The notes beneath the pieces were generated by a model that was not told the DNA's origin, did not search any database, and was given only the letters and a program-made list of their open reading frames with translations. A program made the position numbers and the translations under genes. From contig CAZCNE010000002.1 of assembly GCA_964500515.1 (NCBI GenBank), positions 109,180 through 173,179 of the forward strand: a stretch of DNA of 64,000 bases, written 5' to 3'. Source of the DNA: an uncultured Candidatus Peribacteria bacterium. Lineage in GTDB: Bacteria > Patescibacteriota > Gracilibacteria > BD1-5 > UBA6164. Of this stretch, positions 2,850 to 44,465 are shown in pieces (position 1 is the stretch's first letter; every line of letters starts with the position of its first letter).

Positions 2850-3254
2850 TTATTTAAAAATAAAATAAATCCATTTTTGGAAGTTTGTTTTTGTTTTTAA
2901 TTCAATATCATTAGCATTATCAATATTTTCAATATGTGCTTTTTTGTAAGTTTCTTCATAATTTGGATTTGTATACTTTTCATATTCTTTTTCATCAGTA
3001 AGATACATGACTTTTTCTTTTTTATTTTTTAGACCTTGCTCTTGTTTCATAAGTTTATTTTTATAAGCAAAAGTACTTTTATAAACGATTAAACTTTCTA
3101 TTTCATCAATACTTTTTTTTATATCTTTGTTTAAGATTTGTATTTCTTCAATATATGAATTAATTTTGTATTCTCTATATTTATAATTAATTACAAGAAA
3201 TAACATATAGAAAAGAATTATAATTAATATAACGAAAATATATTGTTTTTTCAT
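2850..3254 (-). CDS. N-terminally membrane-anchored protein, Lys/Glu-rich C-terminal part, unknown function
   Basis: This ORF is intact even in the standard-code track (134 aa). It starts MKKQYIFVILIIILFYMLFLVINY (one TM), followed by a charged, probably helical region. Confidence 0.6.
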   Translation of the reverse strand: MKKQYIFVILIIILFYMLFLVINYKYREYKINSYIEEIQILNKDIKKSIDEIESLIVYKSTFAYKNKLMKQEQGLKNKKEKVMYLTDEKEYEKYTNPNYEETYKKAHIENIDNANDIELKTKTNFQKWIYFIFK

Positions 3255-3324
3255 AATTAATGTGATAAAATTACATAAACTTATTATAACATTTTTTAAA
3301 TAAAAATAAACTAATTTTTATTTT

Positions 3325-28060: not shown

Positions 28061-29014
28061 CTATTTTACTTTCACATTTTTTAGTATTTCATCTATCAAA
28101 TGATCAATTTGTATATTATCCGCTAGTGCTTCATAATTAAGTATAAGTCTATGTCTTAAAACTTGTTTTGCTATATCCTTTATATCCTCTGGAATAACAA
28201 AATCTCTTCAAGATAAAAAAGCTAAAGCTCTTGATGCAACAAGTAAGGAAATTGAAGCTCTAGGTGAAGCTCAGTAAAAAAGATATTTTCATACATTATT
28301 TTCCTGATTTCTTGTGTAAAAAACTATGTCTTTTATGTATTTTAATATATTATCATCAACATAAATTTCTTTCGCTTGTTTTTGAATTTCTATAATATCT
28401 TTTTTTCACATAACTTTTTTTATAGAACTCAAATCATTACTTAAAGAATTATTTTTCATAATTTCTATTTCTTCTTTCTCACTTGGATAAGAAATCATTG
28501 TTTTAAAAAGAAATCTATCAAGTTGTGCTTCTGGAAGATTATAAGTTCAATCCTGTTCTATAGGGTTTTGTGTTGCCAAAACTATAAAGGGTTCTTCAAG
28601 TTTAATTGTTTTATCAGCAATAGTAACTTGTCTTTCTGCCATAGCTTCTAAAAGCGCTGATTGAACTTTTGAAGGAGCACGATTTATCTCATCTGCTAAA
28701 ACAAAATTTGAAATAATTGGACCTTCTTTTATATAAAATTCTTTTGTTTCAGGTGTATAAGCTCTTGCTCAAATCAAGTCACTTGGAAGTAAGTCTGGAG
28801 TAAATTGAATACGAGAAAAATCAAGATCAAGAGCTTTTGCTAAACTAGAAATTGTAAGAGTTTTTGCAAGTCAAGGAACTCATTCTATCAATATATGTCA
28901 TCTACAAAATAAAGTTATAAGCAAATCTCTTAGCAAATCTTCTTGTCAAATCACAAGTTTTTTTACCTCTGTTTTTAAATTTTCAATTTTTTGAGTGTAT
29001 ATATTTGATTCCAT
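28061..29014 (-). CDS. MoxR-family AAA+ ATPase
   Basis: 317 aa. Walker A reads GHILIEGVPGLAKT, with Gly codons TGA at 28871-28873 and 28880-28882. Walker B and sensor region: [28 protein letters not shown]. Confidence 0.9.
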
Positions 29015-29104
29015 AATCTTCTTTTTAAAAAATACTTTAATTTATTATAAATTTTTTTTATTTTTTTCAAACATTAAAGTATTTTTCTTAAATATTTCTT
29101 AAAT

Positions 29105-29133
29105 AAAAAGAACGAAAAATTTTCGTTCTTTTT
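29105..29133 (-). terminator. intrinsic terminator after the sortase-tailed giant gene
   Basis: GAACGAAAA / TTTTCGTTC inverted repeat (29110-29128) flanked by A/T runs, immediately downstream of the stop at 29142-29144. Confidence 0.55.
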
Positions 29134-29141
29134 ATTTTTAG

Positions 29142-31697
29142 TTACTCTGCATAATAAACCCATCTATACCTTAAATCTTTATCACAAGTAAAAATTATTA
29201 TTTTGGTTCAAAGTGGAACATCTTCTTTTAACTTATCAATATCTTCTTCTTTTACTTTAACTACATCTTTTATCTTATGAGATAATTTTTGTCAATTTCT
29301 TGTAATATTTATTTCATCTCATTTTGCCAAAGATCATCAAATAAGTTTTTTAAATACAGCTCAATAAGGATTTTTATCTTCTGGCCAAATTGATGAATGT
29401 CATAAAATTATAGTTCTTCATCTAAGAGTATCTTCATAGAATCAAGCTCATGACTCTTCCAAATCTTTTAACCATACACTTGGATGTTCAAGTAATGTTC
29501 TTGATGGTGAAACATGAATATCTAACTTATCTATATCAAGCTTTATAGAATCTTTATACTCTTCTTCTCAAGCTTTTTTCATTATCAAAGCTCTGTATAT
29601 AAATCATGAAGCTTCTTCTCTTGTTATTTGTTTATTAATATTTGAATTTTGATTAAAACTATATGGTAATAAATTCTTTGTTTTCAAAATTTCTACAGAA
29701 TCATTTTCATTTCAAGCTTCTCATAAATTAAATCATGAAACTATTGTATCACTCAATACTTTATATGTAACTGTTCATTCAGGATTAAAACTATTTTCTG
29801 TTTCTCAAGTCATTATTCATTGTTTTATTGCATTATAAATATATTTTTCGTACCAAGTTCAAGTAGTAACATCATTGTATGGCATATAATAAATATTTCT
29901 TTCTTCAATCTCACTTTCTGTTCAAATAAGTATCATTTTTGATAATTCAAGTCTTTTTAAGTTTCTTTTTGGCTCTACTTTTTCAAGTCATCATCCGCCT
30001 ATTACTCAATACCTATACAATCAAATAAGAGATTCATAGTAAGGATTATTTCAATCAGTTCAAGAAATTAAACTTTCTCAATTATACTTTTTAAACAATG
30101 ATAAAGGAATTATTCAAGTTTTAGGAATTACTCATAAATATGAAGTAAAATCATCAATAAGCTTAATTTTTTCTATTTTTTGTATTATACTGATATCTTT
30201 TTCAATAACACTATCATTATCTTGAGTATTATTATTATTTCCTGAAATTTCTTTTGGAGACAAAATAGCTGGTAAATTATCTTCTACTTTTGAATCTTCT
30301 TCTTTAACTATACTTCCTGTATCACTTTCTTGAGATTCTGGCTTTTTTATTTCGCATATTCAATCATGTAAATTTCATGAATTATCTCAATATGGACAAT
30401 TATCGACACTCGAAGATCATCATCAAATATGTGGAGTTGTTATTCAAGGATTTGTTGTTCAAGTATTTATTCATCCAGTAGAGATTGGACTTTCCAACAC
30501 TGACAGACTAACTTTTGTTGGAGCGGTATTATTGTATGGATTTAAATCTCAGTCAGGATCTGGACTTGCTCAATCTTGAGAATAGTCAATCAATTCCTCA
30601 TTAGTTACCTTGTTTAATCAAGAAATTTTTGCTATATTGTCATATGTTCAAGATTTTGTATTTAAACCTAATTTTAGGTCTAATAAAACTTTTATTTCTT
30701 GTCATACAGGTAAGTTTACTCAAGATCAAGTAAATATTTTTTTATTTGTTAATCAATTGAAATATGAATTTATAACTCAAGTTCATCCCGCAATACTCAA
30801 TTTTGTTCATAATATATCAGCTCAAATAAAGCTTGCTTGTAAATTTTCTTCAATTTGAACATTTTCTAAATTTATATCTCACATATTTTTTCATTTTAAT
30901 TCGTATTTTATGTCAAAAATTCATTCTTTATTTTTATCTACTTTTGGTGATAAAAGCATTTTTGAAATTCATAAAACTGCATTACTCGTAAATCAAACTC
31001 TTGTTGGTTCTGAATTATTTCAAGGGTTATAATCCTTATCAGGATCAACATCAGATCAATCTTGTGATAAATCAGTTTTTACTTCATTAGTATTTGGAAC
31101 AATTCACATAGCTTTTGATGAATTAAAAAATGGTCAAACAGAAGAAATTGGAATAACTCTTAAACTAATTCTAGCTATAGCTTCTTCAAATTCATTTAAT
31201 TTATCATTTCAAGTTAATATTTTTATATCTTCTTTTCAATTATAATTTGAGTTTAAATTTATATTTCAACTAATAATTTTTGTTTTAACATTTTCTATTT
31301 TAGCTCAAGAAAATGCTCTTGCTAAATCATCTTCTATTTGAATATTTGTTAGTAATCAAATTCAAGAATTTTTTACTTTTAATTCATATTCTACATTGTA
31401 AGTTCAATCTCAATTTTTAATTAAATCTACTAACCTTTTTGCTATACCTATTTTTGGACTTAAAACTAGTAAACTATCTCCAGCTCAAGAATAACTATAT
31501 CATAATCACGAGGCAAAAATTTTACTAGCTTTATTATGATATAAACCTTCATTATAAGCAACAACATCAATTGATAAAGTACAAGAATCTTCTGCTGGAA
31601 TAACAAGTCAAGAAACTATTACACTTTTTGATCATGATCATGCTGGAGTACTAATAATTAAGTTATTTTCAGGGTATTCAAAAAATTCAGGAGATCA
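29142..31697 (-). CDS. C-terminal section of the giant surface protein (or a separate 851-aa ORF): two DUF11-like modules, SLH-like modules, sortase-like catalytic domain
   Basis: The first ATG after the in-frame TAA (31704-31706) is 31697. DUF11-like blocks: YELKVKNSGIGLLTNIQIEDDL...DLSQDGSDVDPDKDYNPGNNSEPTRV and YELKGKNMGDINLENVQIEENL...DYSQDGASPDPDGDLNPYNNTAPTKV. SLH-like block: YNDVTTGTWYEKYIYNAIKQGIMTGETENSFNPEGTVT. Sortase-like C-terminus: RTIILGHSS...KGDEINIT...TKIIIFTCDKDLRYRWVYYAE*. The last 380 nt were verified codon by codon. Confidence 0.7.
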
Positions 31698-31703
31698 TAG
31701 ACA

Positions 31704-34700
31704 ATTAGTTGTCATATTTTCATTTGGATCTCATGCTAAAACCATTTGTCATGGAATACTTGGAAATATATCATAAAAAGGTGCATAAATCGTAAATCAT
31801 TGATTTTGTAGTGTTACTTCTTGTGAATTAGGATTTTTAATCTCAAAATTTAATCTTGTTTTTTCTCAAGGATACACAACTTTTTTATCAAAATATTTTT
31901 TTATACTTAATGGATTTATTTCTTGCACAAATAAAGAAACTTCAGAACTTGGTGCTCAAGCATATGAAATTTCCTGAACTTTTACTCAGCTAGTCACATT
32001 TGGATGCTCTCATAATATATCACTTGTTACCTTAATAATAAACATTTTAGATTCATTAGCTTTTAAATTAAAATTGCTTATATCTATACGCTTCCTATCT
32101 CAAGATATTGTGTATTTATATGATCAAGAATCACAAGGAGGATAACTACTAGAAATATTATCTTGAATATTGCATTGAACTTCAGCTCATGAAGAAATCT
32201 GCATATTATTTAATTCATCATAAAAACTAGCGTTTGTAAAATCATTATCCGTCATATTTGCTACCAAAAAAAGTAAATTTGACACAGATCATTTTGATAT
32301 TTGTTGATCAATAAACATTTTTTGAATATTTGGAGGGGTATTTCAAACTTGTAGGTAAGCTACATTTGATTTTGCTCAAGTTCATAATTCATTAGAATAA
32401 ACTTCTGTTGTCTGGTTTGGATAAACTCAAGATTCTACACTTGTAATAATATCAATTCTTATTGAACATCAAGCTCATGGTAATAAAGACATATTTGATA
32501 CTTCTATTATATTTCATCAAGCCTCTGCATTAACTATTCAATTACAATTATTTACTATATTTGAAGGAGTAGCTATTGTTATTCATGATAAATAATCACT
32601 AAATTTTATTCAAGTAAAACCACCAGGTAATATATAATCAAGATTAGGATTTTGAATATAAAAAGTCATTGTTGTTTTTCATCATCATTCTGGAAAATTC
32701 ATTTGATAGTAATTTTTTTCAATACTTATATCTCTTGGTTTTACTATTATTAAATTATCTTTATTACTCTTTTTTCATGTTCAAGTTTCATTTGAATATA
32801 TTTCTGTTGTTTGATTTGGGTAAATTCATAAATTTGTAGCTATTGATTTTATTTTAACCGATATATTACAAGAGGCATATAATGGAAGTGATAAATTTGT
32901 AAGTTCAAAAGTATCTCATCAAACCTCTGCTTCATATGTAAAATCATTACAATCTGATTGTATATCTAAAGGATCTGATAAAATCATTCAGGTTAAGAAA
33001 TCACTAAATCTGATTCAAGTTAAATCTCAAGAATATGTGCTAGCATTGTTCATGTTACTAACACTAAAGGAAATATATGACTCCTTTCAAACCAAAATCT
33101 CATTTGGTTGAAAAGTTTTTACAAGAATTGGTGGAATTGGTCATGTGACAACTAAATTAGCCAAATTACTTTTTTGTCCTGTTTGAGTTTCATTTGAATA
33201 TATTTCTGTTGTTTGATTTATGTGTGTTCATATTTTGTTACTTGTTACATCAACATATATATAACACTGTTGTCACCATGAAGTAGATTCTAAACTAGCA
33301 TTTGTTACTTTAAAAGTATCTCATGAGGCCTCTGCTTCATATGTAAAATCATTACAAGTTGATGTAATATTTAATGGATCTGTTAGTGTCATACCGCTAA
33401 GTGTGTCACTAAATTTAATTCATGTGAATCATCATGGTAAAATTTGAGTAGAATTTTTATTAAATATTGAAAATGTTATTGTTGATATTCATCAAGTTCA
33501 AATAAACTTAGGACTAAAAGATTTTTCTATTCTGGGTGGAATTGGATTTACAACTTGTAAGTTTGCTATATTTGATTTTGCTCAAGTTCATAATTCATGA
33601 CTAATTATTTCGCTAGTTTGATTATTTAAAGTTCAAATAGTATTTCATGTTATTTCAACATATATTTGACAAAATGATCAAGGTGATATAGATAAATTTG
33701 TTACTTTAAAAGTATCTCATCAAGCTTCTGCTTCATATGTAAAGTCATTACAATTTGATGTTATACTTAGTGGATCTGTTAACGTTATACCACTAAAAGT
33801 ATCATTAAATTTAATTCATGTTAAATCTCAAGGCATTATTTGATTATTGTTTGGATTATTTATTTCAAACAATATAGTTGAAGATTGTCATTTTCCTATA
33901 TAACCAGGAGAAAAATACTTATTTATTTTAGCATTTACTGGTTTAGAAATTTCTAAGTTTGCAATATTTGATTTAGCTCAAGTTCAGATTTCATTTGTTA
34001 TTATTTCACTTGTTTGATTAGGAAATGTTCAAACATTATTTCAAGATTTTACATCCACATAAACATAACAATTATTTCATCATCATGCTGTTCAAAGTAA
34101 ATTTGCATTTGTAACTTCAAAAATATCTCATCAAGCTTCTGCTTCATATGTAAAATCATTACAAGTTGATGTTATATTTAGTGGATCTGTCAATGTCATA
34201 CCACTAAGAGTATCACTAAATTTAATTCATGTTAATCCTCATGGTAAAATACTTAAACTATTTGGATTGTGAATTTGAAATGTTATTTGAGATACTTTTC
34301 AAGTTCATGTTAAATTTGGAGAAAACCACTTACTAACTGTTGCATTACTTGATTTTAATATATTTAAATTTACTATATTTGATTTAGCTCAAGTTCATGA
34401 CTCATTTGAATATATTTCTGTTGTCTGGTTTGGATAAGTTCAGTATTGTATTCAAATCACATCAAAAGAGACTAAACAAGATGTAGTTGGTGAAACTGTA
34501 GCATTTGTTATATCAATTTTATTTCATCAAGCTTCTGCTTCATATGTAAAGTCATTACAACTTGATGTTATATTTAATGGGTTTGTTAGTATCATACCAC
34601 TAAGAGTATCACTAAATTTAATTCATGTTAGTCATCATGGTAAAGTACTTGAACTATTTGGGTTATAAATTTGAATATTTATAGTTGTTGTTCAAGACAT

Positions 34701-37700
34701 ACCTATATTACTTTTAGTGAAACTTTTATTTATAGTTGGCTTTTGAGCTTCAGTAACATAAAGATATCAAGTATTACTTCTTGATCAAGTTCAAGTTTCA
34801 TTTGTTACTATTTCACTAGCTCTATTTATCAAAGTTCAGACAACATTTCAAACTACATCCATATTTATCAGACAATACTCTTTTGGAGAAATTGTTACTC
34901 ATGAAACACTAAAAAAGCTTCATCATGCAATAGCTTCATAACTTACATTATCTCAACAACCGCTAAAAGTTATATTTAAAGGATTTGTTAAAGTCATACC
35001 ACTAAATGTATCACTAAATCCAATTCAAGTTAGTCATCCAGGAAGAAAACTACTAAGATTGGAATTATATAATCTAAATGTTAACTTAGATTTTTCTCAT
35101 TTTATTATGTAAAGAGGGTCAAATAGTTTTTCAAAACTTGGTTCTTTTAAATCAACAATATCTAAATTTACAATATTTGATTTAGCTCAAGTTCATAATT
35201 CATTTGAAAATATTTCTGTTGTTTGGTTTGGATGAGTTCAAACAACATTAGAAGTTACTTCAAAATATATATAACAATCTGAGCTTGGAGAAATTGTTGC
35301 ATTTGTAATTTCAAAAATATTTCATCAAGGTGAAGCGTTATAAGAAAAGTTCATTCAACAATTAGATGAACTAATATTTAATGGTGTGCTTAAAATCATT
35401 CAACTAAGAACATCTTTAAATTTTACTCAAGTCAATCATCAAGATAGTGTTAAATAACTATTTGGATTATTTATCTTTAAAGTAATTTTTGAATTTGTTC
35501 ATCTTAAAATAATGTTTGGTGATATACTTTTAATTATACTAGCAGGTTTTGGAGGAGTTACAGTAAGATTTGCTATATTTGATTTTGCTCAAGTTCAATT
35601 TTCATTAGTATAAACTTCGTTTGTTTGATTTGGATGAATTCAAACTATATTACTTGTTACTCTAATATCTACATAACAACTCGAATTTGGAGGAATTGTT
35701 GCATTTTTTATTTCAAATTGATTTCATCATTGAACTCATTGATAATCAAAATTTTGACAAGTAGAATTAAAATTTATAGGACTTGATAAAACCATTCAAC
35801 TAAGAGTATCTTTAAATTTTACTCAAGTAATTCAAGCTGGAAGAATAGTAGAATTATTAGGATTTGTTAAGTTTATTCTTATTGTTGAAACATCATTGTA
35901 AGATATAGTTGTAGGAGAAAATGTTTTTTGTATTTTTATAGGTTCTATAATCTTTAGATCAGCTTTAACTGAATCTGGATTTTTTGTATCAAGAATTGAT
36001 TTAAGATCTCATGCTGCAATTGTGTTTGTATATAATCAAGCTCAAGTTCAAGTAATTGAAGCATATATTTGACAAGCACTTTCTGCCTTAAATAATCATC
36101 AGTCTAATCTAAGATAAGAAGTTCCATCAGGATTTATTCATTTTGTAACTATTCATCAAGAACAAGTAGTTGTTGGAGTTCAAACTATACTTAGTCAAGC
36201 TGGAAGAGTATCAATAATAGCTGGACTTGCTCAAGTCTCATCGTTTTGAATTACTTGAGTATTAAATATTTCAATTATCAAAGTTGTATTTTTTCACTTT
36301 TCTATTATATTTGGACTAAATCATTTTCATATATTTAAATTTCTTGCAACAGTCAATGTTGCAGCAGAATCATTACTATTAGTAATTCACTCCTTTGTTA
36401 CTACATCTCAAGAAGATAAGGTATTTATATGATTTCATCACTTATAACTTGTTACATTAAACTCAAAATGACAAATTCAACCAGCATCCATAAATGCATC
36501 AGATAAAATCATTTTATTACTTCAAATAGATCAAGAAAAAGTTCATCATCTACATTTTCAAGTTACAGATTTGTATTGATCTGTAAAATTAGGATTTGGA
36601 TTTGTATGAATTTTTATATCTGTTGGTAATTCATCAGTAATTCACACTCAAGATAAATTTATGGCTTCACTTAAAGTATTTTCAAGAGTAATCCTTACTC
36701 TAGACACTCATCATCAATTTATTACTGGTGGTATAAACTCTTTATTTGCTGTAATACTTACAGCCTTTCTTGTTATATCAGCATTTACATTGGAATAATT
36801 TTCAAATTGTCATCAGTTATAATCTTTTGCAGAAAAATATATATTTTTTCAATGTGTTGATCAGGTAATTGTGTTTGTAGATTTTTGAATAGTTTGTCAA
36901 GATGTAAGAGCTGGTACTCTTACATTTATATATATATTACATTCTGCTGAATTTGATAAAGAAGATAAAGTTCCTCAAGACAACGAAATACTAGATGTTC
37001 AAGGATTTCAAATAATTTCTCATCAACAATCATTTTTTATATCAGGATTTGAAGAAATAGTATGTCAAAACGGTAGACTGTCTAACAAATTTATATTTTT
37101 AAGAGGAATATAATCATAAGAACTTCTTCTAATTCTTATTCTAAGTCTTGTTTCTCATAAAGGTCATACAGTATTTGGAATAAATTCTTTATATAAAGAA
37201 ATCGCAGGATATACATAAACTTGATTTTTTAGTTCAAAAGGAAAAACTGTTGATCATGAAGATGCTGTATTCTCATACGTTATATTTCAAACAGGAATAG
37301 TATTATATTTCCATTGATTTATTGGATATGTATCTGTATCTGATTTAATAGGTATAGTAAAAGTACAAGAAGAATTTTTTGGGATTGTAAGATTATTAAT
37401 ATTTATAATACTTGTTCATACCGGTGCATTTGCTTCTACTGAAGGACATGTTGTAACATAACTATCAGCAATTTTAAAAAAAGGATCTGTATCTCAAGGA
37501 ACTCAATTATCAATTCACATCGTTGATAAATCGTCTTTTAATTTCAAGTTTATAACATCAGTTGCCTTACTTCTATTTGTAAAAGTAAATATTATATTTG
37601 TTTTATCTCATTGATAAATATATTGTCTGCTAAATTTTTTATCAATTCAAACAATATTACTATTTACTGTTAATGTTGAAGAAAATTGATTGTATTCATA

Positions 37701-38984
37701 AGTATTTAAATCTCAAGCTGGGACTATGTTTGTATAAGTTCATACATCATTAACTTTAACTTTTACAGACAATGTACAACTTCAATTTTGAAATCAAGGA
37801 GCATTTAAATTTGCTGCTTTTAAAGTTGCTCAACTAAGTTCCAAAATTGTTCATCAAGATGAAGAACTAAGAGTTCAAGAACATGTATTTGATATCAAAC
37901 TATCATAAGCCATTATTCAATTTAAACTTTTTGGCAAAACATCTTTTATATAAAAATTTTCTATTGGCTTTGCATTATAATTATAAAAATTAATATTTAG
38001 AGTTGTTGTGTCTATATCATTTATATCTATTACATTTGGAATAAAATTTTTACTTATATTTATTCCTTGAGCTCATCACATTGTATAAGATATATCTTGA
38101 TAATTTATAGCTCACTCTTCTGTTGTTACATTTCAGATTGGTAATCTATTTGTCGAACTATAGCTATTATATGGGTCTTTTGGATTTTTTGATGGTTCTA
38201 CATCAAAAGATATAGTACATTCTCAAGGAATCACTCAAGAAGACGGAGGGATAATTCATCAAGAAAAACTAATCTTTGATGATACTCAATATGAATTTGT
38301 ATAATCAACTATACTAAAGGATCAAGAACATGTAGATTTTCAAGTTCAAGGAATTGCATGCAATCATCTAGAATAATTATTTAAATCATCTAAAAAACTA
38401 AGATTATTTAAGCTAATTGGATTAGGATTTTTTAAGCTAATTTTCACTGTTCAAAACTCATATCATTGTATATAACTTGTTGTTGTATTGGTTCCAGAAA
38501 AAACCATAGTTTTTGTTCAAGTTATGTTTTGAAGCATAGTAACCAAAGTTCATTGGGTACTTTGTTCATTTTGAACAGGATTTCCTCATACTGTTCAAGT
38601 TACATCTCATACATCAATTGTGTTTATATAAGTTCATTTTTTAGGAGAATATACATCTAGTATGATATTACAAGTTCAAGGATTTGTTCAATCTCAAGCT
38701 GAAACTATTCATCAACTTAAATTAACAACTCATCATGTTAATGTGTTTAAAGTTTCAATAGTTCAAGAACAAGAGTTGTATATATTGCTTGGACTTGCCA
38801 CAAATAAATCTTCTGGAAAATAGTCAGTTAATTTAGTATTTATTGTTGGTATAAGTGATGAATTTTGAAGTTTGATTGTTAATTTTGATATTTCTCTAGG
38901 ATAGATATTTGCTGGAGCGAAACTTTTATTTACATCAAGTGCAGCAAATGTAGCTAATGGAACTATAATAAAAATTATTAGCAA
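31704..38984 (-). CDS. giant tandem-repeat surface protein (about 18 beta-sandwich-type two-Cys repeats), N-terminal section
   Basis: TTG 38984 (MLIIFIIVPLATFA/ALDVNKSF, signal-peptide-like) to TAA 31704-31706, 2426 codons. Frame confirmed at 37937, 36383, 34148, 32999 and 31742. Repeat consensus: ..NPNS..LPGGLTGIKFSDTLSGM.L..PLNITS.CNDFTYEAEAGG......NA..SP..SC.......G..PNQT.EI.SNE.GTGAKSN. The true start may be ATG 39027 (see findings). Confidence 0.75.
32300..35700 (-). repeat. in-frame tandem DNA repeats, period about 400 nt, inside the giant gene
   Basis: Long recurring strings on the plus strand. CTGCTTCATATGTAAA(A/G)TCATTACAA occurs near 32927, 33337, 33737, 34137 and 34537. ATTTGATTT(T/A)GCTCAAGTTCA occurs near 32365, 33572, 33972, 34378, 35175 and 35578. 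TTCATTTGAATATATTTCTGTTGT occurs near 32788, 33188 and 34402. Confidence 0.85.
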
Positions 38985-39093
38985 TAAATAATATTTTTTT
39001 ATAAGTTTTTGATTCTTTATTTTGCATACAAATGCTGCTGAAATTCCTTTAACCGAAATTCCATGAAATTTCTTTCAAGAAAATTGAGTTTAT

Positions 39094-41250
39094 ATGTGAA
39101 AAAAGATTTTGGATGAAGAAAAGGTTGAAGAATACAGATTAAATTACATAAGAAATTATATTTCTGGAATGTCTGATGATTACCCTTATAAAGTAGACAT
39201 TTCTAGAATAAATCAATCTATGTATTATCCTATTAAAATTAACTGAAATTATAATATAACTAGTGTTAAAGATTATGAGTGAAAAGATATAAATTTTACT
39301 CAAACATGAGACACAATAAGAATATATTATGATTCTTTTTTAAATAGTTTTGGAACTTGAATTTATGATACTGAAAATCTAATTTTGAAAGATTATTCTC
39401 CTTATCATAAATCTCCTAAGCAATTAACTATTAGTGATTCTGAGTGAAATTCAACTACAATAAATTTTCAGTTTTTTTCTTCAATTGCCAATTTTAACCA
39501 ACAAATAACACAATGAAATACAACTTACATAATAAAAGAAGATGATAACTTAAATATTTCTTTATCTAAAGATTATAATAACGCAGATGTTAAACTATTT
39601 GCATTAAAGTATTTTATACCAAACTTTAATAATTATGAAAAAATAATTGGTGATATAATAAATGAAAAAAACATAAAAATTAATATTAACTACGATATAA
39701 TAAAAATATTAAACTTAAACTCTTATGATTTTAGTATAATCAGTATAAATACTTTTTCAAAAAAGTCTTGTGACCCTAACTATTATTGGTACAATTCAAG
39801 AATTGCAGAACCAAGACTTATTAATGATCCTAATGATTTAGAAATACAAACTAAATTTGAGAATGAATTATTAAATACCTTTTATTGAGCTAATATAGAA
39901 TTAAGTAAAAGTGAATGAGGAGAATTTGTACCTTATACTAATGTTAGTACTAATACAAATATAACACAGTTTGATCAACTTGAAGACTGATTGTATAAGT
40001 ATAAAATAACAAATTTAGATACTGAATATAAAAGAATTTGTGCTAATCATTTTAACTCTTCTGATATTAATATAAATTACGGTAAATGAAATTATTTTTT
40101 ATTTGTTGAGTGAAATATTCATAAATATAATTCACCTTTAGATTGAGATATTATTAATCTAGAAGAATTTTTATCTGAACACCAAATTGAACAATCAAAT
40201 TATTTTAATGTTTCTCTAAAGGATTTTGAATGAGAAGTTATTGCGTCAATTGATAAAGATTGTTTTTTAAATTGATCATGCAACTTTAAAAATAATGTAG
40301 ATAATTATCTTTATGATATAGATCCCTGCGAAAAAGCTAATTTGAGTATAAGTTATAAAGATTATTATAATGAAATAGATTTAAATAATGAAATTTTGTT
40401 ATGATCTGATTGTAGTTTAGAGCCTAGTATTAATGAAATAGATTTTTTTACTGATGATTTTTATATGAATTATAAAATAGATATTGAAAATATAGATAAT
40501 TTAAATTATGTTTTTTATGATAAAAATGACAATATAATAAGTGATGTAAATGAGTTTAGATCGGAAGAAATAGAAGAAGCTTATGCAAATACTAGTCCTG
40601 TAGAAATTCTTTGAAATATATTTTATTGAACTGATCCATGATACTCTTCTTTCATATGAATAAAAAATGATTCTTTAATTTTTGATAATATATGAAAAAT
40701 TGTTGTTTTTAATAATTGAACCGAGGTGTGAACAATTACCTTTAATTCAGAACAAAGAGCCATATTTGAGAAAATTGAAACTGATAATGATTTAAAGGGA
40801 GGTTTTAGCCTTAGAGAAAATATTAGCATAGAAAGTAAAAAAATTATATGAAAAAATTTTGAAAATTTAATTTTTAATAGAAAATTAAAAATTGATCTTT
40901 CAAGGTTTGAAGAAACTTATAATTCTAGAATTTTATTAGATAGAATAAACTTAAAATTAGATCTGATAAATAAAATAAATGTAACTAATATAGATAAATC
41001 AAAACTATTTGTTTGTAGAAACGCTATAGGAACTCAAGAACAATTTGATAATATTGAAAATATGTTTTGATGTTATGATTTAAAATCTATTGAAGAAGAT
41101 AATACATGATTTTATTATTATAAAGAATATCCTGGAATATTTAATTTATATATTTATTGAAAAAAATGACTTGTAAATGAAGATTTTAAAAATTTTGATG
41201 TTAATTTTAAGTTATTTTTTAGTAAAATGAATTTTACTCTTTTTGATTAA
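39094..41250 (+). CDS. hypothetical protein, 718 aa from ATG 39094 (742 aa if TTG 39022); Asn/Asp/Cys-containing, probably extracellular
   Basis: The frame is open from 38992 to TAA 41248-41250. Upstream in-frame codons read ..ISFGFFILHTNA/AEIPLTEIPG.. (signal-peptide-like), but the only canonical starts are TTG 39022 and ATG 39094. No family recognised. Confidence 0.6.
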
Positions 41251-41284
41251 AAATTATATTATTTTTTAAAAATAAAAAAAATCT

Positions 41285-43189
41285 ATGAAAAAAATTATTC
41301 TATATATATTGGTAGTATCCTTAAGTTTAAATAATTTTACTGTATTTGCCTGAGTTATAGGTGGTGATGTACCTCCATATTATTTTAATGATATGATTGA
41401 TTGAAGCTTTAATGTAACAAATTCTATAGAAAATTGAGTTTGTTGAAGCTCAAATTGACAAAACTTTACAGAAGTTCCAACACAAAATCTTTGTGCAAGT
41501 TGAAATACTTGAAGTATTACATGAAATTGACCTTGGACTTGGACTTGTGATTGAATTAATTGATGAAGTTCTGTAACTTGTCAAGCAAATCTTCTTACTT
41601 ATAGTATAAACTGAAAAGTCTTAGAAAAAGATACAAATAATCCTCTATCTAATGTAAAGTTGGAATTAATAAATTCTTCTTGAAATACATTAAATACTGT
41701 AAATACTAATTCTAGTTGAGATTATTCTTTCTCTGGTTTAGTTCTTTGAAATTATCAGATTAAAGAAAACGTTTTATCTTGATATATAGCAAGTTCTGAT
41801 TTTGATTGATGAGATCCTAGTTTAACAAATTTATTATTAAATTCTGATTTATCAAATATAAATTTTATTCAAGAAAAAATTACAAATAATACTTGAACTT
41901 GAACGACAAACACATGAACAACAAACACTTGATCCACAAATACATGAACAATTATACACACTTGATGAACTAGTTCTTATACTCCTCCTTGTTCTGAAAA
42001 TGATTTAGTTTGTAAAAAAGATTCTTCATGAAAATATATCTGGACTTTAAAAGAATCTAGTTTTTGTAAATCAGAAAATATTTGAAATGATTGTAGCGTT
42101 AATACTATTGAAAAAGAAAAAGAAATTGAAAATAAAACTTGAAATACTATTCCAACAGTAACAAGTAATGATCCTATTCCAAAAAATATAGAATTAGAAT
42201 CAGCACCTGAGAAAAAATGGATAGAAGATGCAGAAAATATAGTAAATAATTATGAAAATGAAGTAAAGCTACTTGAAGAAATACAAAATGATGAAAACAA
42301 AGTTTGAAATAATGAAATTGTAAAATTACCTAATTTTTTACTTCAAACTTGAGTTCCTGTATTGGAAAGAACAAAGGTAATAAAAAATAAAAATGTTGAA
42401 ACTGATACAAATAAAGAAGATTTTAGGCTAGCTTGAACTAATTCTCCAGATATAAATCATTGGCTTGAAGTAGTTCCTTTAGAAGATAAAAACAAAGATT
42501 TATATATAATTTTACCTTCTCAAGGTTTAGTTATGCCTATAAATACTATTAATAAAAATAGTGAAGACTACAAAAAATCTATAAATTGAGAAAATTTTGA
42601 TTTTTACAAATATTTAGAAACTTGAGCTTTAGAAGTTCCTTGAACATCAACTAATTGATATTGAGAAGTTTGAAATAAAGTAGTTATTTGACATAGTTCT
42701 TATTATAAATCATCAAATTGAAGATATAAAACTCAATTTCAAAAAATTATAGAAAATGAAATTTGAGAAGAAGTTTGGATTTATCAAAAACAAGAATCTT
42801 GAGAATATAAAAGATATAGATATATAACCCAAGAATCATACAATACAGATAAATCTGATACTGATGTATTGTTATCATGAAATTGAAAAAATCTTACATT
42901 GTATACTTGTACTCCTATTTGATGAACTAGCTGAAGATGGATTATCAAAGCAAAATATATAGATGAAGAAAAAAATTATTTATCAAAAAAAGTAAATTTT
43001 TCACAAATAAAAATAGATGATAAAATCGCTATACAAAAATTTACAAATAATATTTCAAAAGAAAAATCTATTGATGTATTTAATAAAACTTCTCCATTGC
43101 TTGAAAAATACTCTTCAAATACTAAAGCCACTAATTATCTAGATTATATTAGATTACAAATTGCACAAAAAATTACAAGCAAAAATTAG
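41285..43189 (+). CDS. secreted Cna-B/prealbumin-like domain protein fused to a sortase-family transpeptidase domain (634 aa)
   Basis: Signal peptide MKKIILYILVVSLSLNNFTVFAG. A Cys-rich segment is followed by GKVLEKDTNNPLSNVKLELINSSGNTLNTVNTNSSGDYSFSGLVLGNYQIKE (Cna-B-like) and a TGTGTTNTGTTNTG linker. C-terminal sortase motifs are NKVVIGHSSYY, EEVWIY and KNLTLYTCTPIGGTSGRWIIKAKY. The Cys codon at 42908 was verified in frame. Confidence 0.8.
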
Positions 43190-43289
43190 TTTTACAACAA
43201 TAAGCTCGATTGGCAAGCTAAAATGCTTGTATTAGCAAAAAATAAATGATACAATTATATTGTATTTATTTATTAATACATTCTTTAAA

Positions 43290-43415
43290 ATGAAAAAAAT
43301 GGTGTCTGTTTTGATATGTATGTACATATTGACTATATCAGCTTATGCTGAAAATGATAATCAGTATGTAATCAACAATTCAAATAATGTTGAAATTGAA
43401 AGTATAAATTACTAA
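43290..43415 (+). CDS. 41-aa ORF with signal peptide (possible small secreted peptide)
   Basis: MKKMVSVLICMYILTISAYA/ENDNQYVINNSNNVEIESINY*. It is followed directly by a strong hairpin terminator. There is no other support. Confidence 0.35.
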   Translation: MKKMVSVLICMYILTISAYAENDNQYVINNSNNVEIESINY

Positions 43416-43425
43416 TCATACTATC

Positions 43426-43460
43426 AAAAAAAGCTTATAGAAAATCTATAAGCTTTTTTA
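43426..43460. terminator. bidirectional terminator between the peptide ORF and sod
   Basis: AAAAAAAGCTTATAG-AAAAT-CTATAAGCTTTTTT. Confidence 0.6.
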
Positions 43461-43466
43461 TTTTTT

Positions 43467-44036
43467 TTAAATTCTTTCTTCCACTTTTTCCCAATTAACT
43501 ATTTCCCAAAAATTTTCTACATATTTTGCCCTAAGATTACGATAATCTATATAATAAGCATGTTCCCAAACATCTATTGTCAAAATTGCTTTTTTACCAT
43601 GTTTTATAGGAGTATCTGCATTTGAAGTATTTAATATTTCAAGTTTTTTTCAATCTAAAATTAACCAAGTCCAAGCTGAACCAAAATTTTTGATTGCTTC
43701 TTCGCTAAATTTTGCTTTCAAATTTTCAAAACTTCCAAAATTATCATCAATCAACTTTTGCATTTTTTCTTTTGGATTTTTATCATCTTTTTTAGCTAAT
43801 GATTCAAAATAAAATGTATGATTCCAAACTTGAGCAGCATTGTTAAAAATAGCTCCAGAAGACTTTTTTATAATTTCTTCTAAACTCATATTTTCAAATT
43901 CACCTCAAGAAATAAGTTTATTTAAATTATCAAGATAAGTTTTATGATGTTTCTCATAATGATAATTTATAGTTTCAAGTGAAATATATGGTTCTAAAGC
44001 ATCTTTTTCAAAAGCTAGTTTTGGCAATTTAAACAT
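43467..44036 (-). CDS. sodB: Fe-type superoxide dismutase
   Basis: 189 aa. [34 protein letters not shown], then [13 protein letters not shown] (Fe-SOD-type AAQxWNH rather than Mn-type GGHxNH), then [13 protein letters not shown]. The standard code splits it into two track ORFs at TGA (Gly) codons. Confidence 0.9.
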
Positions 44037-44465
44037 AATATAATTTTTTATGAAATAATCTAAGATTATATTAATTTTTTTACAGATATTTGCAAATATT
44101 TTATAACTATGATTTAATATATACATATATTTTAATATTTAATAAATAATTTATGAATATAAGAAGAGCTCAAAATGCACCAGAAATTTCTAACAAATTA
44201 GAAAAAAATAGTAAAGAAGTTTTTTAAAAATCAAAGGATGAATTAGAAAAACTTAAAAAATATTTAAATCATGAAATTTGGACTTCTCCAGATTCTATTC
44301 CTTTAGGTGCTCCAAGTGATCCTACAAATACTTGAAGAACAGAAAAGCCAAAACCAACACCAGAAAAAACATCGCCAACAATGCCAAAAACACCAACAAC
44401 AACACCAGAAGAAACTTCTGATAATTATTTTTAAAATAATTCTTGCAATACTTATATTTAACTTT

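What the first reader, a model, noticed from the sequence alone, without database searches (positions are those of the whole stretch)
39022..43415. Divergent partner locus: unknown 718-742 aa protein, a second sortase fusion (Cna-B-like + sortase) and a 41-aa signal-peptide ORF
Three same-strand genes sit head-to-head with the giant gene.
- An Asn/Asp-rich, Cys-containing protein with no recognisable family (39094..41250).
- A 634-aa protein (41285..43189) with a signal peptide, a Cys-rich module, a Cna-B/prealbumin-like module (GKVLEKDTNNPLSNVKLELINSSGNTLNTVNTNSSGDYSFSGLVLGNYQIKE), a (T/G)-rich linker and a clear sortase domain (VVIGHSSYY .. LTLYTCTPIGGTSGRW).
- A 41-aa ORF, MKKMVSVLICMYILTISAYA/ENDNQYVINNSNNVEIESINY.

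Together with the giant gene's tail there are two sortase-type domains within 14 kb, both sharing a GHSS motif. No protein in the window has a C-terminal LPXTG-type sorting signal followed by a hydrophobic tail. The substrates and chemistry of these enzymes are therefore unclear. This may be a self-contained surface-assembly system.
Basis: partly seen in the sequence, partly recalled or inferred. Interest (0 to 1): 0.6.

Follow-up and report, generated by a model that had tools for sequence, protein, structure and literature searches.

The report
Surface protein carrying its own sortase
In this TGA=glycine (Gracilibacteria-type) bacterium, the 634-residue gene encodes a secreted adhesin-like protein joined through a conserved sortase-cleavage-type motif to its own sortase enzyme, an arrangement I found in no paper, while its two neighbours are an orphan secreted protein and an unverifiable mini-gene that are not conserved partners of the giant gene.

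Summary
The three ORFs exist as described once TGA is read as Gly.

**634-aa protein (41285-43189).** It has a signal peptide, a 4-Cys module, a SpaA/SdrD_B-type fold, a T/G linker and a sortase domain. The sortase passes the Pfam cut-off, has a His470/Cys542/Arg551 triad, and gives a confident AF2 model whose best Foldseek hits are lid-bearing class C sortases.

In 40 of 51 cluster representatives with a passenger, L[PL]x[TM]G sits in that window (reversed word 2; random passenger windows 0/1000), usually at the same spacing. Passenger, motif and enzyme form one conserved unit found in Gracilibacteria.

Most likely (about 0.45-0.5) the enzyme cuts its own chain at T|G and transfers the passenger to the wall. 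An uncut lid is the main rival.

**Other parts.**
- The 718/742-aa protein is a fast-evolving, probably secreted orphan.
- The 41-aa ORF is plausible but unconfirmed.
- The "partner locus of the giant gene" idea fails. The closest relative has the pair without the giant gene, and DUF7933 is in 0 of 40 relatives.

This scan noted the same fusion before on other Gracilibacteria and Anaerolineae DNA.

The parts
39022..41250 (+). Orphan 742-codon ORF (718 aa from ATG 39094). Acidic, Asn/Asp-rich, 8 Cys, probably secreted.
   Evidence: ORF. No family. The only homologue is in L003 (38-42% identity, six Cys among the invariant columns). 0 of 40 relatives. AF2 model unusable, mean pLDDT 35.7.
38992..39040 (+). 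Open frame upstream of TTG 39022 encoding a signal-peptide h-region (YFFISFGFFILHTNA/AE) with no canonical start codon. It overlaps the 5' end of the giant gene on the other strand.
   Evidence: Read. The L003 orthologue has the full signal peptide MKKILIFFISICALYLPANA. The same junction with the T7 run occurs in an independent contig, L046.
41285..43189 (+). 634-aa passenger-motif-sortase fusion protein.
41285..41353 (+). Signal peptide MKKIILYILVVSLSLNNFTVFAG (residues 1-23).
   Evidence: Read: n-region KK, hydrophobic core, VFA|G site. Inference only; no predictor was run.
41432..41584 (+). 4-Cys module (CGSSNG..LC..GNGPWTWTC..C, residues about 50-100). No Pfam family.
   Evidence: The same module is repeated in the unrelated hit P0007.
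41603..41896 (+). Prealbumin-like SpaA / SdrD_B / Cna-B-type domain (residues 107-204).
   Evidence: Pfam SdrD_B 4.2e-10, SpaA 6.9e-9, CarboxypepD_reg 1.3e-8, all over their cut-offs.
41882..42094 (+). T/G-rich linker (NTGTGTTNTGTTNTGSTNTGT) followed by a second 4-Cys stretch (C236, C243, C261, C270).
   Evidence: Conserved in the orthologue P0006.
42323..42352 (+). KLPNFLLQTG: an LPxTG-type sorting word (LLxTG variant, residues 347-356). Its Gly is a TGA codon.
   Evidence: TTA CTT CAA ACT TGA. Family-wide conservation. pLDDT 89 for module residues 11-20.
42353..42421 (+). Flexible spacer between the motif and FRLAG; the same length in most relatives (24 aa's count, 23 residues written here, 357-379).
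   Evidence: Spacing is 24 aa in 28 of 40 motif-bearing representatives. pLDDT below 50 for module residues 23-33.
42422..42964 (+). Sortase catalytic domain (residues 380-560): His470 (42692-42694), Cys542 (42908-42910), Arg551 (42935-42937).
   Evidence: Pfam Sortase 9.9e-11. H, S, S invariant and T-C-T-P and R nearly invariant (>=90%) in alignment A2. AF2 mean pLDDT 84.2. Foldseek top hits are sortases, E 4e-9, prob 1.0.
43007..43186 (+). C-terminal three-helix extension (residues about 575-634). No family; present in only part of the relatives.
   Evidence: AF2 helices at module 243-254, 258-274 and 279-297. Hit coverage ends either near 225 or near 295. No Pfam hit.
43290..43415 (+). 41-aa ORF MKKMVSVLICMYILTISAYA/ENDNQYVINNSNNVEIESINY: a candidate secreted mini-protein, unconfirmed.
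   Evidence: Identical in L046 and called as a gene there. A crude signal-peptide rule passes only 12 of 1716 short ORFs genome-wide, this one included. No homologue in any locus.
43427..43459 (.). 15-bp-stem hairpin flanked by A and T runs: a two-way terminator shared by this + strand unit and the convergent superoxide dismutase gene (43467-44126, -).
   Evidence: No + strand terminator was found between 41250 and 43427.
29142..38984 (-). Context only: 3280-aa giant protein with 17 DUF7933 repeats, IPKTG (30114-30128), SLH (29763-29882) and a weakly sortase-like tail (29145-29420).
   Evidence: Absent at this site in L003. DUF7933 in 0 of 40 relatives.

Best explanation
Gene 41285-43189 encodes a Sec-exported surface protein. 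Its adhesin-type passenger (4-Cys module, SpaA/SdrD_B fold, T/G stalk) is joined through an LPxTG-type word (here KLPNFLLQTG) and a 24-residue flexible spacer to a complete sortase domain, followed by a three-helix tail. Passenger, word and enzyme form one conserved unit: a Gracilibacteria clade of sortases whose fused members cap many different adhesin-like passengers.

Most likely mechanism (inferred, not shown). After export, the sortase Cys542 attacks the T|G bond of its own chain, or of a neighbouring copy, and holds the passenger as a thioester. It then hands the passenger to an amine, most plausibly the peptidoglycan precursor or cross-bridge. The enzyme would thus serve as a built-in, possibly single-use anchoring module and replace the hydrophobic tail of classical substrates.

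The upstream 718/742-aa gene is a co-transcribed, rapidly diverging, probably secreted orphan of unknown role. The 41-aa ORF may be a small secreted peptide on the same transcript.

My odds:
- Architecture: above 0.9.
- Motif and enzyme as one selected unit: about 0.85.
- Actual self-cleavage and transfer: about 0.45-0.5.
For: Shown.
- Sortase HMM over its cut-off and a SpaA/SdrD_B domain. HSS is invariant, and the catalytic Cys (TCTP) and Arg nearly so (>=90%), in 21 aligned relatives.
- AF2 mean pLDDT 84.2. The segment IVKLPNFLLQ scores 89 although it is followed by a disordered spacer, so it is modelled as packed on the domain.
- Foldseek top hits are all sortases.
- The family has 1008 hits at E<=1e-3.
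- 40 of 51 representatives with a passenger carry L[PL]x[TM]G in the 60-residue window. The reversed word occurs in 2, and random passenger windows give 0/1000. Spacing is 24 aa in 28 of 40.
- Of 23 long ORFs among 27 genome loci, 22 have the motif about 280 aa from the C-terminus, behind signal peptides and passengers of 860-2418 aa.
- Passenger domain types differ between members: Big_13, Big_6, DUF11, cadherin-like, SpaA.
- Short family members have an N-terminal signal peptide or anchor instead of passenger plus motif. In about 10 of them, the cut site my script guessed from an AxA-like rule (..A|LTPISQKWV) falls at the residue where the fused forms have LPxT|GTPISER.
- The LL variant recurs in at least 3 lineages, so it is kept rather than decayed.
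- The genome has three PBP transpeptidase domains, so a wall acceptor exists.

Operon: 34-nt gap between the first two genes, and no terminator until 43427.
Against: - No biochemical, proteomic or transcript evidence.
- I could not see model coordinates, so I cannot say whether the motif lies in the catalytic groove.
- The window's own motif has Leu instead of the canonical Pro at position 2.
- Residues after the motif (TPIxxR) are also conserved. That fits a permanent structural lid as well as a leaving group.
- The genome keeps a membrane sortase and 2-3 classical LPQTG/LPQAG substrates. The fusion therefore does not replace the classical pathway.
- Nothing shows what retains the protein at the surface before or after cleavage.
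Confidence: 0.5

Rival explanations
1. Uncut lid. The LPxTG-type word is a pseudo-substrate that occupies the enzyme's groove, like the lid of class C sortases. The passenger is a stalk that holds an active or regulated sortase out in the wall, where it works in trans on the classical LPQTG proteins.
For: - The closest structures are lid-bearing class C sortases and B. anthracis SrtA, which has an N-terminal appendage.
- The docked segment has high pLDDT.
- Conservation extends beyond the pentapeptide, KxLPxxLPxTGTPIxxR.
- Classical substrates exist in the genome.
Against: - Known lids use DP[WFY], not a full L-P-x-T-G word. None is present in residues 335-400.
- A tether would not need the exact cleavage pentapeptide.
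- The genome already has a membrane sortase for its 2-3 classical substrates.
Confidence: 0.25
2. Trans-processing. The housekeeping membrane sortase (C3:129697-130662) cuts the internal motif and anchors the passenger. The C-terminal sortase-like module is a discarded or separately acting pro-domain.
For: - The housekeeping sortase is present and passes Pfam at 6.7e-22.
- The genome's classical substrates use LPQTG/LPQAG, which is similar to the fused word.
Against: - The fused catalytic triad is invariant or nearly so across the family, so the domain is under selection as an enzyme.
- The fixed 24-aa spacing to that domain is unexplained by a foreign enzyme.
- There is no hydrophobic retention segment to hold the motif at the membrane.
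Confidence: 0.1
3. First reader's reading. The three genes plus the giant DUF7933 gene form one self-contained surface-assembly system with two dedicated sortases.
For: - Head-to-head position, reproduced in a second strain (L046).
- Both large proteins carry an [IL][PL]xTG word upstream of a GHSS..TC..R domain.
Against: - L003 has the pair without the giant gene.
- DUF7933 in 0 of 40 relatives and no DUF7933 in the flanks of 27 loci.
- The orphan protein is in 0 of 40 relatives.
- The giant tail fails the sortase HMMs and has no orthologue in 40 relatives or in the metagenome scan.
- An [LIV]PxTG word in a 3280-aa protein is expected by chance about once in five (my estimate).
Confidence: 0.08
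4. Artefact. Two separate genes (an adhesin ending at a TGA stop, then a sortase) are wrongly read through.
For: Under table 11 the motif's Gly codon TGA would end the adhesin right after LLQT. Database fragments such as MPQTG.. and MLQTG.. come from such gene calls.
Against: - 47 TGA codons lie inside this ORF at Gly-type positions, including GHSS and other conserved columns.
- Every gene in the window needs TGA=Gly.
- Relatives with GGN at the motif Gly have the same continuous frame (P0008, P0011).
Confidence: 0.02

Closest known systems
Class C (pilus-assembly) sortases with an N-terminal lid, e.g. C. diphtheriae SrtA (5k9a, 6bwe), A. oris SrtC-1 (2xwg), GBS SrtC1
   Same: Same beta-barrel fold and His/Cys/Arg triad, and the best Foldseek matches. 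A segment of the enzyme's own chain N-terminal to the barrel is modelled as packed on the domain. A SpaA-type domain is associated.
   Different: - NCBIfam class C score is 24.4 against a cut-off of 160.
- No DP[WFY] lid motif, no membrane anchor, and no separate pilin genes with LPxTG.
- The N-terminal segment is a full LPxTG-type word carrying a large passenger.
Classical sortase A / LPXTG cell-wall sorting (S. aureus SrtA and substrates with LPXTG + hydrophobic segment + basic tail)
   Same: The recognition word is of the same type. The genome also holds this classical set: a membrane sortase at C3, and LPQTG/LPQAG proteins with a TM segment and a K/R tail.
   Different: Here the enzyme takes the place of the hydrophobic tail, in the same polypeptide. 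The word is internal (residues 352-356 of 634) and reads LLQTG.
   Same: Same order of parts (cargo, LPXTG, flexible linker, sortase). The man-made version does cleave itself and ligates the cargo to an added amine.
   Different: Man-made, and built from class A SrtA. The natural family is a distinct clade with conserved flanks and a fixed 24-aa spacer. Its activity is untested.
Passenger-LPxTG-sortase fusions noted earlier in this scan (Gracilibacteria: e1-3024650, e1-4883637; Anaerolineae: e1-3176517, e1-2306915)
   Same: Same architecture and the same lineage (TGA=Gly bacteria). The same caveat applies: carrier genomes keep stand-alone sortases and classical substrates.
   Different: - This copy is short (634 aa).
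- It uses the LLxTG variant and has a SpaA/SdrD_B passenger.
- It sits beside an orphan gene and a strain-specific giant gene.

Membership tests
Sortase superfamily (Pfam PF04203) | Profile match over the curated cut-off | tested here: met
   41.9 bits against 26.6, E 9.9e-11, residues 445-557.
Sortase superfamily (Pfam PF04203) | His, Cys (TLxTC-type) and Arg catalytic residues in order | tested here: met
   H470 (GHSS), C542 (LTLYTCTP), R551 (GRW). In 21 relatives H is invariant and C and R nearly invariant, >=90%.
Sortase superfamily (Pfam PF04203) | Sortase beta-barrel fold | tested here: met
   AF2 mean pLDDT 84.2. All 50 listed Foldseek PDB hits are sortases, best E 4.0e-9, prob 1.00.
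Sortase superfamily (Pfam PF04203) | Transpeptidase activity on an LPxTG-type peptide | not testable with these tools
   Needs biochemistry.
Curated sortase classes A-F (NCBIfam) | Score over a class model's cut-off | tested here: not met
   Class C 24.4/160, class D 22.2/165, class E 16.4/160, TIGR01076 27.4/39.35. No hit to classes A, B or F.
Class C pilus sortase | DP[WFY] lid, a membrane anchor, and adjacent pilin genes with LPxTG and a pilin motif | tested here: not met
   No such motif in residues 335-400 and no hydrophobic segment after the signal peptide. The neighbour P0001 has no LPxTG word.
Classical cell-wall sorting signal (LPXTG + hydrophobic stretch + basic tail at the C-terminus) | All three elements within the last 50 or so residues | tested here: not met
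   The word is internal (352-356 of 634), reads LLQTG and is followed by a polar spacer and the enzyme.
SpaA / SdrD_B / Cna-B prealbumin-like domains | Profile match over the curated cut-off | tested here: met
   SdrD_B 40.3/29.7, SpaA 36.2/23.1, CarboxypepD_reg 35.5/32.3. Isopeptide residues were not examined.
Gracilibacteria passenger-LPxTG-sortase fusion clade (defined in this scan, not in print as far as I could search) | Signal peptide, variable passenger, L[PL]x[TM]G about 24 aa before the FRLAG start of a clade-specific sortase module | tested here: met
   Module hits down to E 1e-137. Motif and spacing. The window protein falls inside the starred clade that holds most fused forms.
Sortase (giant gene's tail, residues about 3189-3280) | Profile match over the cut-off | tested here: not met
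   Pfam: no hit at E<=10 for the tail alone. TIGR01076 15.1/39.35. Only weak pairwise signals: 2.8e-4 to the genome's own sortase and 0.045 to 2xwg. GHSS..FTC..RYRW is present.

The most novel reading that the evidence does not exclude
The sortase module is a natural self-cleaving, possibly single-turnover anchoring device. Each adhesin brings its own enzyme, which cuts the chain at LLQT|G and ligates the passenger to the wall. The acceptor could instead be another protein amine, for example the N-terminus of the co-transcribed orphan protein. In logic this would parallel Hedgehog or intein autoprocessing and the man-made STEPL fusions, and would be a new route of surface-protein attachment in ultra-small episymbiotic bacteria.
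Probability: 0.4. Interest if true: 0.8.

Novelty: new variant of a known kind. Interest (0 to 1): 0.58.

Why it matters
Sortases are textbook enzymes that act in trans, from the membrane, on substrates carrying a C-terminal signal. A large natural family in which substrate word and enzyme share one secreted chain would change how surface display is pictured in Gracilibacteria. These organisms are uncultured, recoded (UGA=Gly) and thought to live attached to other cells, so adhesins are central to their biology.

It would also offer ready-made self-ligating protein tags with new specificities (LPxTG, LLxTG, LPxMG variants).

There is a practical point for annotation. Under the standard code the frame stops exactly at the motif's glycine, so these fusions are split and missed.

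For this window specifically, the result removes the idea of a giant-gene partner system. The orphan gene is left as an open question.

Tried and rejected
718-aa protein: nothing found.
- Pfam and NCBIfam, including E<=10.
- PDB sequence search.
- The 5.8-billion-protein word search found only the same protein (96% identical, TGA read as W) from a near-identical strain's contig.
- 40 relatives' genomes.
- Metagenome scan with the two-sequence alignment.
- tblastn against all fetched loci.
- AF2 with 2 sequences gave mean pLDDT 35.7, so I ran no fold search on it.

Giant tail.
- No orthologue with the full IPKTG-SLH-sortase layout in 40 relatives.
- Nothing in the metagenome scan.

Other checks.
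- Classical sorting signals next to family members: only 1 convincing case in the fetched loci, so there is no systematic adjacency.
- Shine-Dalgarno support for the start codons is not applicable. Only 0.8% of long ORFs have a 4-mer SD.
- Literature: seven searches found no description of natural LPxTG-sortase fusions. The CPR papers read mention sortase only in passing.
- Assembly chimera at the giant/orphan junction is rejected. L046, from another run, has the same junction and differs by 29 SNPs.


Full report
**1.

Under table 11 the region 36-46 kb has only six ORFs of 60 aa or more, none over 79 aa. Under table 25 (TGA=Gly) it is fully coding. The window is about 22% G+C.

- 39022/39094..41250 (742/718 aa)
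- 41285..43189 (634 aa)
- 43290..43415 (41 aa)

In the 634-aa ORF, 47 of 51 Gly codons are TGA.

**2. The 634-aa protein**

Domain evidence:
- Pfam gives Sortase (E 9.9e-11, 41.9 bits, cut-off 26.6, residues 445-557).
- Within residues 107-204 it gives SdrD_B, SpaA and CarboxypepD_reg, all over their cut-offs.
- NCBIfam class models are far below their cut-offs (class C 24.4/160), so it belongs to no curated class.

Read from the sequence, the parts in order are:
- Signal peptide, residues 1-23.
- A 4-Cys GPWxWxC module, residues about 50-100.
- The prealbumin-like domain.
- A (T/G)-rich stalk.
- A second 4-Cys stretch.
- A charged spacer.
- KLPNFLLQTG, residues 347-356.
- A spacer of about 24 residues.
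- The sortase domain, with H470 (GHSS), C542 (LTLYTCTP) and R551.
- A C-terminal three-helix tail.

An AF2 model of residues 335-634, built from 21 aligned relatives, has mean pLDDT 84.2. All 50 listed Foldseek PDB hits are sortases. The list is led by lid-bearing class C enzymes and by B. anthracis SrtA (5k9a/6bwe, 2xwg, 2kw8; E about 4e-9 to 1e-8, prob 1.0).

**3.

Relatives found by word search all carry LP(Q/R/K)TG about 45 residues before the start of the conserved domain. An exhaustive phmmer search of 1.84 billion cluster representatives with residues 335-634 gave 1008 hits at E<=1e-3 and 74 at E<=1e-30. Many hits lie at the C-terminus of proteins of 1000-3800 aa.

Counts among representatives:
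- 51 representatives have at least 120 residues upstream of the domain.
- 40 of them carry L[PL]x[TM]G in the window -70..-10, and 33 of those are strict LPxTG.
- The reversed word occurs in 2.
- 1000 random 60-residue passenger windows give 0.
- The distance to the FRLAG-equivalent is exactly 24 residues in 28 of 40.
- At least seven of the 11 without the word have one-letter variants (LPQSG, LIKTG, LAQTG and others).

A scan of one genome per species returned 27 loci, nearly all labelled Gracilibacteria, Absconditabacterales or 'Peribacteria' MAGs and two only 'uncultured bacterium'. Of the 23 long ORFs, 22 have the word about 280 residues from the C-terminus, behind signal peptides and passengers of up to 2418 aa. 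Four loci encode short stand-alone enzymes of 235-291 aa, with an N-terminal signal peptide or anchor and no word. Passenger domain types differ widely: Big_13, Big_6, DUF11/DUF7507, cadherin-like, SpaA.

On a maximum-likelihood tree of 126 modules, most fused forms fall in one well-supported half. The other half is 40/48 short forms. The LLxTG variant of the window protein needs at least three origins, so it is a tolerated and maintained variant rather than decay.

In the AF2 model the segment IVKLPNFLLQ has pLDDT 89, while the following 11 residues are below 50. The word is therefore modelled as packed on the domain and tethered by a flexible loop. I had no access to coordinates, so I cannot say whether it lies in the catalytic groove.

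One further observation. In about ten short family members, the signal-peptidase cut site guessed by an AxA-like rule in my script (..SPAFA|LTPLSQKWV..TVQA|LTPISQKWV) falls at exactly the residue where fused members have LPxT|GTPISER. Cleavage at T|G would thus give an enzyme with the same N-terminus as the stand-alone forms. This is suggestive only, because sortase signal peptides often stay uncut as anchors.

**4. Distribution**

- Strong matches that include the motif region occur in about 11 of 40 same-order genomes, sometimes in several copies. Only 1 of 7 same-genus genomes has one.
- None of 300 other genomes sampled across the phylum has a match at E<=1e-20.
- The module is therefore an accessory, lineage-restricted element. 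This means 'not found in those searched', not 'absent'.

**5. The rest of the genome**

- There are three sortase-like domains: a 321-aa membrane sortase on C3 (Pfam 6.7e-22), the 634-aa fusion, and the giant's tail.
- Classical substrates exist: a 228-aa protein ending LPQTG-TM-KNKK, a 330-aa protein ending LPQAG-TM-KFKQK, and perhaps a third.
- Three PBP transpeptidase domains show that a wall is made.
- The fusion therefore adds to the classical pathway and does not replace it. An earlier check in this scan reached the same result on other genomes.

**6. The 718/742-aa protein**

Its only homologue is in L003, a 5.3-kb contig from another run, at 38-42% identity. The neighbouring sortase fusion is 65-76% identical there, so this gene evolves much faster. 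Six Cys are among the invariant columns of the two-sequence alignment.

The L003 orthologue begins with a full signal peptide (MKKILIFFISICALYLPANA). In the window, the frame is open back to 38992 and encodes the h-region and cleavage site (YFFISFGFFILHTNA/AE) but has no ATG/GTG/TTG before it. It is most likely an exported protein.

AF2 failed (pLDDT 35.7). It was found in 0 of 40 relatives and in no metagenome contig.

**7. The 41-aa ORF**

- It has a textbook signal peptide.
- It lies on the same strand, 100 nt after the fusion gene, and just before the only + strand terminator (43427-43459, 15-bp stem).
- A crude signal-peptide rule passes 12 of 1716 short ORFs in the genome, this one included.
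- It is identical in L046 and was called as a gene there.
- L003 ends before it, and no homologue exists elsewhere.
- I put it at about 50% real.

**8. The 'partner of the giant gene' idea**

- L003 aligns to window 28383-29109 (MoxR) and then directly to 38989 onward. The 9.9-kb giant gene is missing there.
- DUF7933 occurs only in this gene in the genome, in 0 of 40 relatives, and in none of the flanks of the 27 loci.
- The giant's tail has SLH (7.8e-11) but no Pfam sortase hit. It has no orthologue with the same layout.
- The head-to-head junction itself is real. L046, from a different run and differing by 29 SNPs over 8637 nt, has the same sequence, including the T7 run.

**9. Mechanism**

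Shown: the architecture, the catalytic residues, the fold, and the conserved motif at fixed spacing.

Inferred: the enzyme acts on its own word. I favour self-cleavage at T|G with transfer of the passenger to a wall amine (about 0.45-0.5). The reasons are:
- The word is the full cleavage pentapeptide.
- The enzyme replaces the hydrophobic tail.
- The same order of parts self-cleaves in engineered fusions.

The main rival is an uncut, lid-like pseudo-substrate (about 0.25). Cutting by the housekeeping sortase is less likely (about 0.1).

**10. Novelty**

My literature searches found no description of such natural fusions. This scan itself noted the same arrangement earlier on other Gracilibacteria and on Anaerolineae DNA. 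My counts here are independent of those notes.

Noticed in passing
window 29110-38988 compared with L003 726-887: Relative to the closest relative's contig, the whole 9.9-kb giant gene is present or absent almost exactly gene-for-gene: about 33 nt beyond its stop and a few nt beyond its TTG. It is also 25-26% G+C against 18-22% in the flanks, and DUF7933 is in 0 of 40 relatives. It looks like a strain-specific insertion or deletion.
   Followed up: partly
window 38985-39027: Both divergent genes lack a canonical start before their signal-peptide h-regions, and their 5' ends overlap around a T7/A7 run (38994-39000). The giant's frame reads (ATA)KKYYLLLIIF.. upstream of TTG 38984. The junction and the T7 length are identical in an independent contig from another run (L046). 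Non-canonical starts or tract-length switching are possible and untested.
   Followed up: partly
L003 1180-1260 and 3200-3260: In the relative's contig the orphan orthologue is split by a frameshift. The ATG (MKKYF..) of the sortase-fusion orthologue is one base out of frame with the rest of the gene, next to an A-run. This is either sequencing error in a Logan contig or homopolymer switching just after start codons of surface-protein genes.
   Followed up: no
window 42414-42931: 20 of the 29 differences between the window and L046 (8637 nt, 99.66% identical) fall in this 520-nt stretch encoding the sortase domain. About half are synonymous. This looks like a recombination patch from a diverged allele.
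   Followed up: no
window 31704-31706: An earlier first-stage note reports an in-frame TAA here that splits the giant gene. In the gene's frame this codon is AAT (Asn), and the 3280-codon frame has no internal stop under table 25.
   Followed up: yes
whole genome (G000): Only 0.8% of ORFs of at least 300 aa have a 4-mer Shine-Dalgarno within 20 nt upstream. Upstream regions are about 90% A+T, with an A peak at -11/-10. Start-codon choice cannot be judged by ribosome-binding site in this organism.
   Followed up: partly
window 41432-41584: The N-terminal 4-Cys module (CG..LC..G.GPW.W.C..GG....C) has no Pfam family. It recurs as about ten tandem copies in an unrelated OmpA-family protein (P0007) and in other database hits.
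   Followed up: no
G000 C3:124697-130662: The housekeeping membrane sortase lies about 1.7 kb downstream of a 1094-aa ORF that contains a PBP transpeptidase domain.
   Followed up: no
L005, L008, L010-L013, L015, L026: Eight Gracilibacteria genomes encode proteins of 2350-2420 aa that end in the same motif-plus-sortase module. They may be one conserved orthologous giant adhesin.
   Followed up: no
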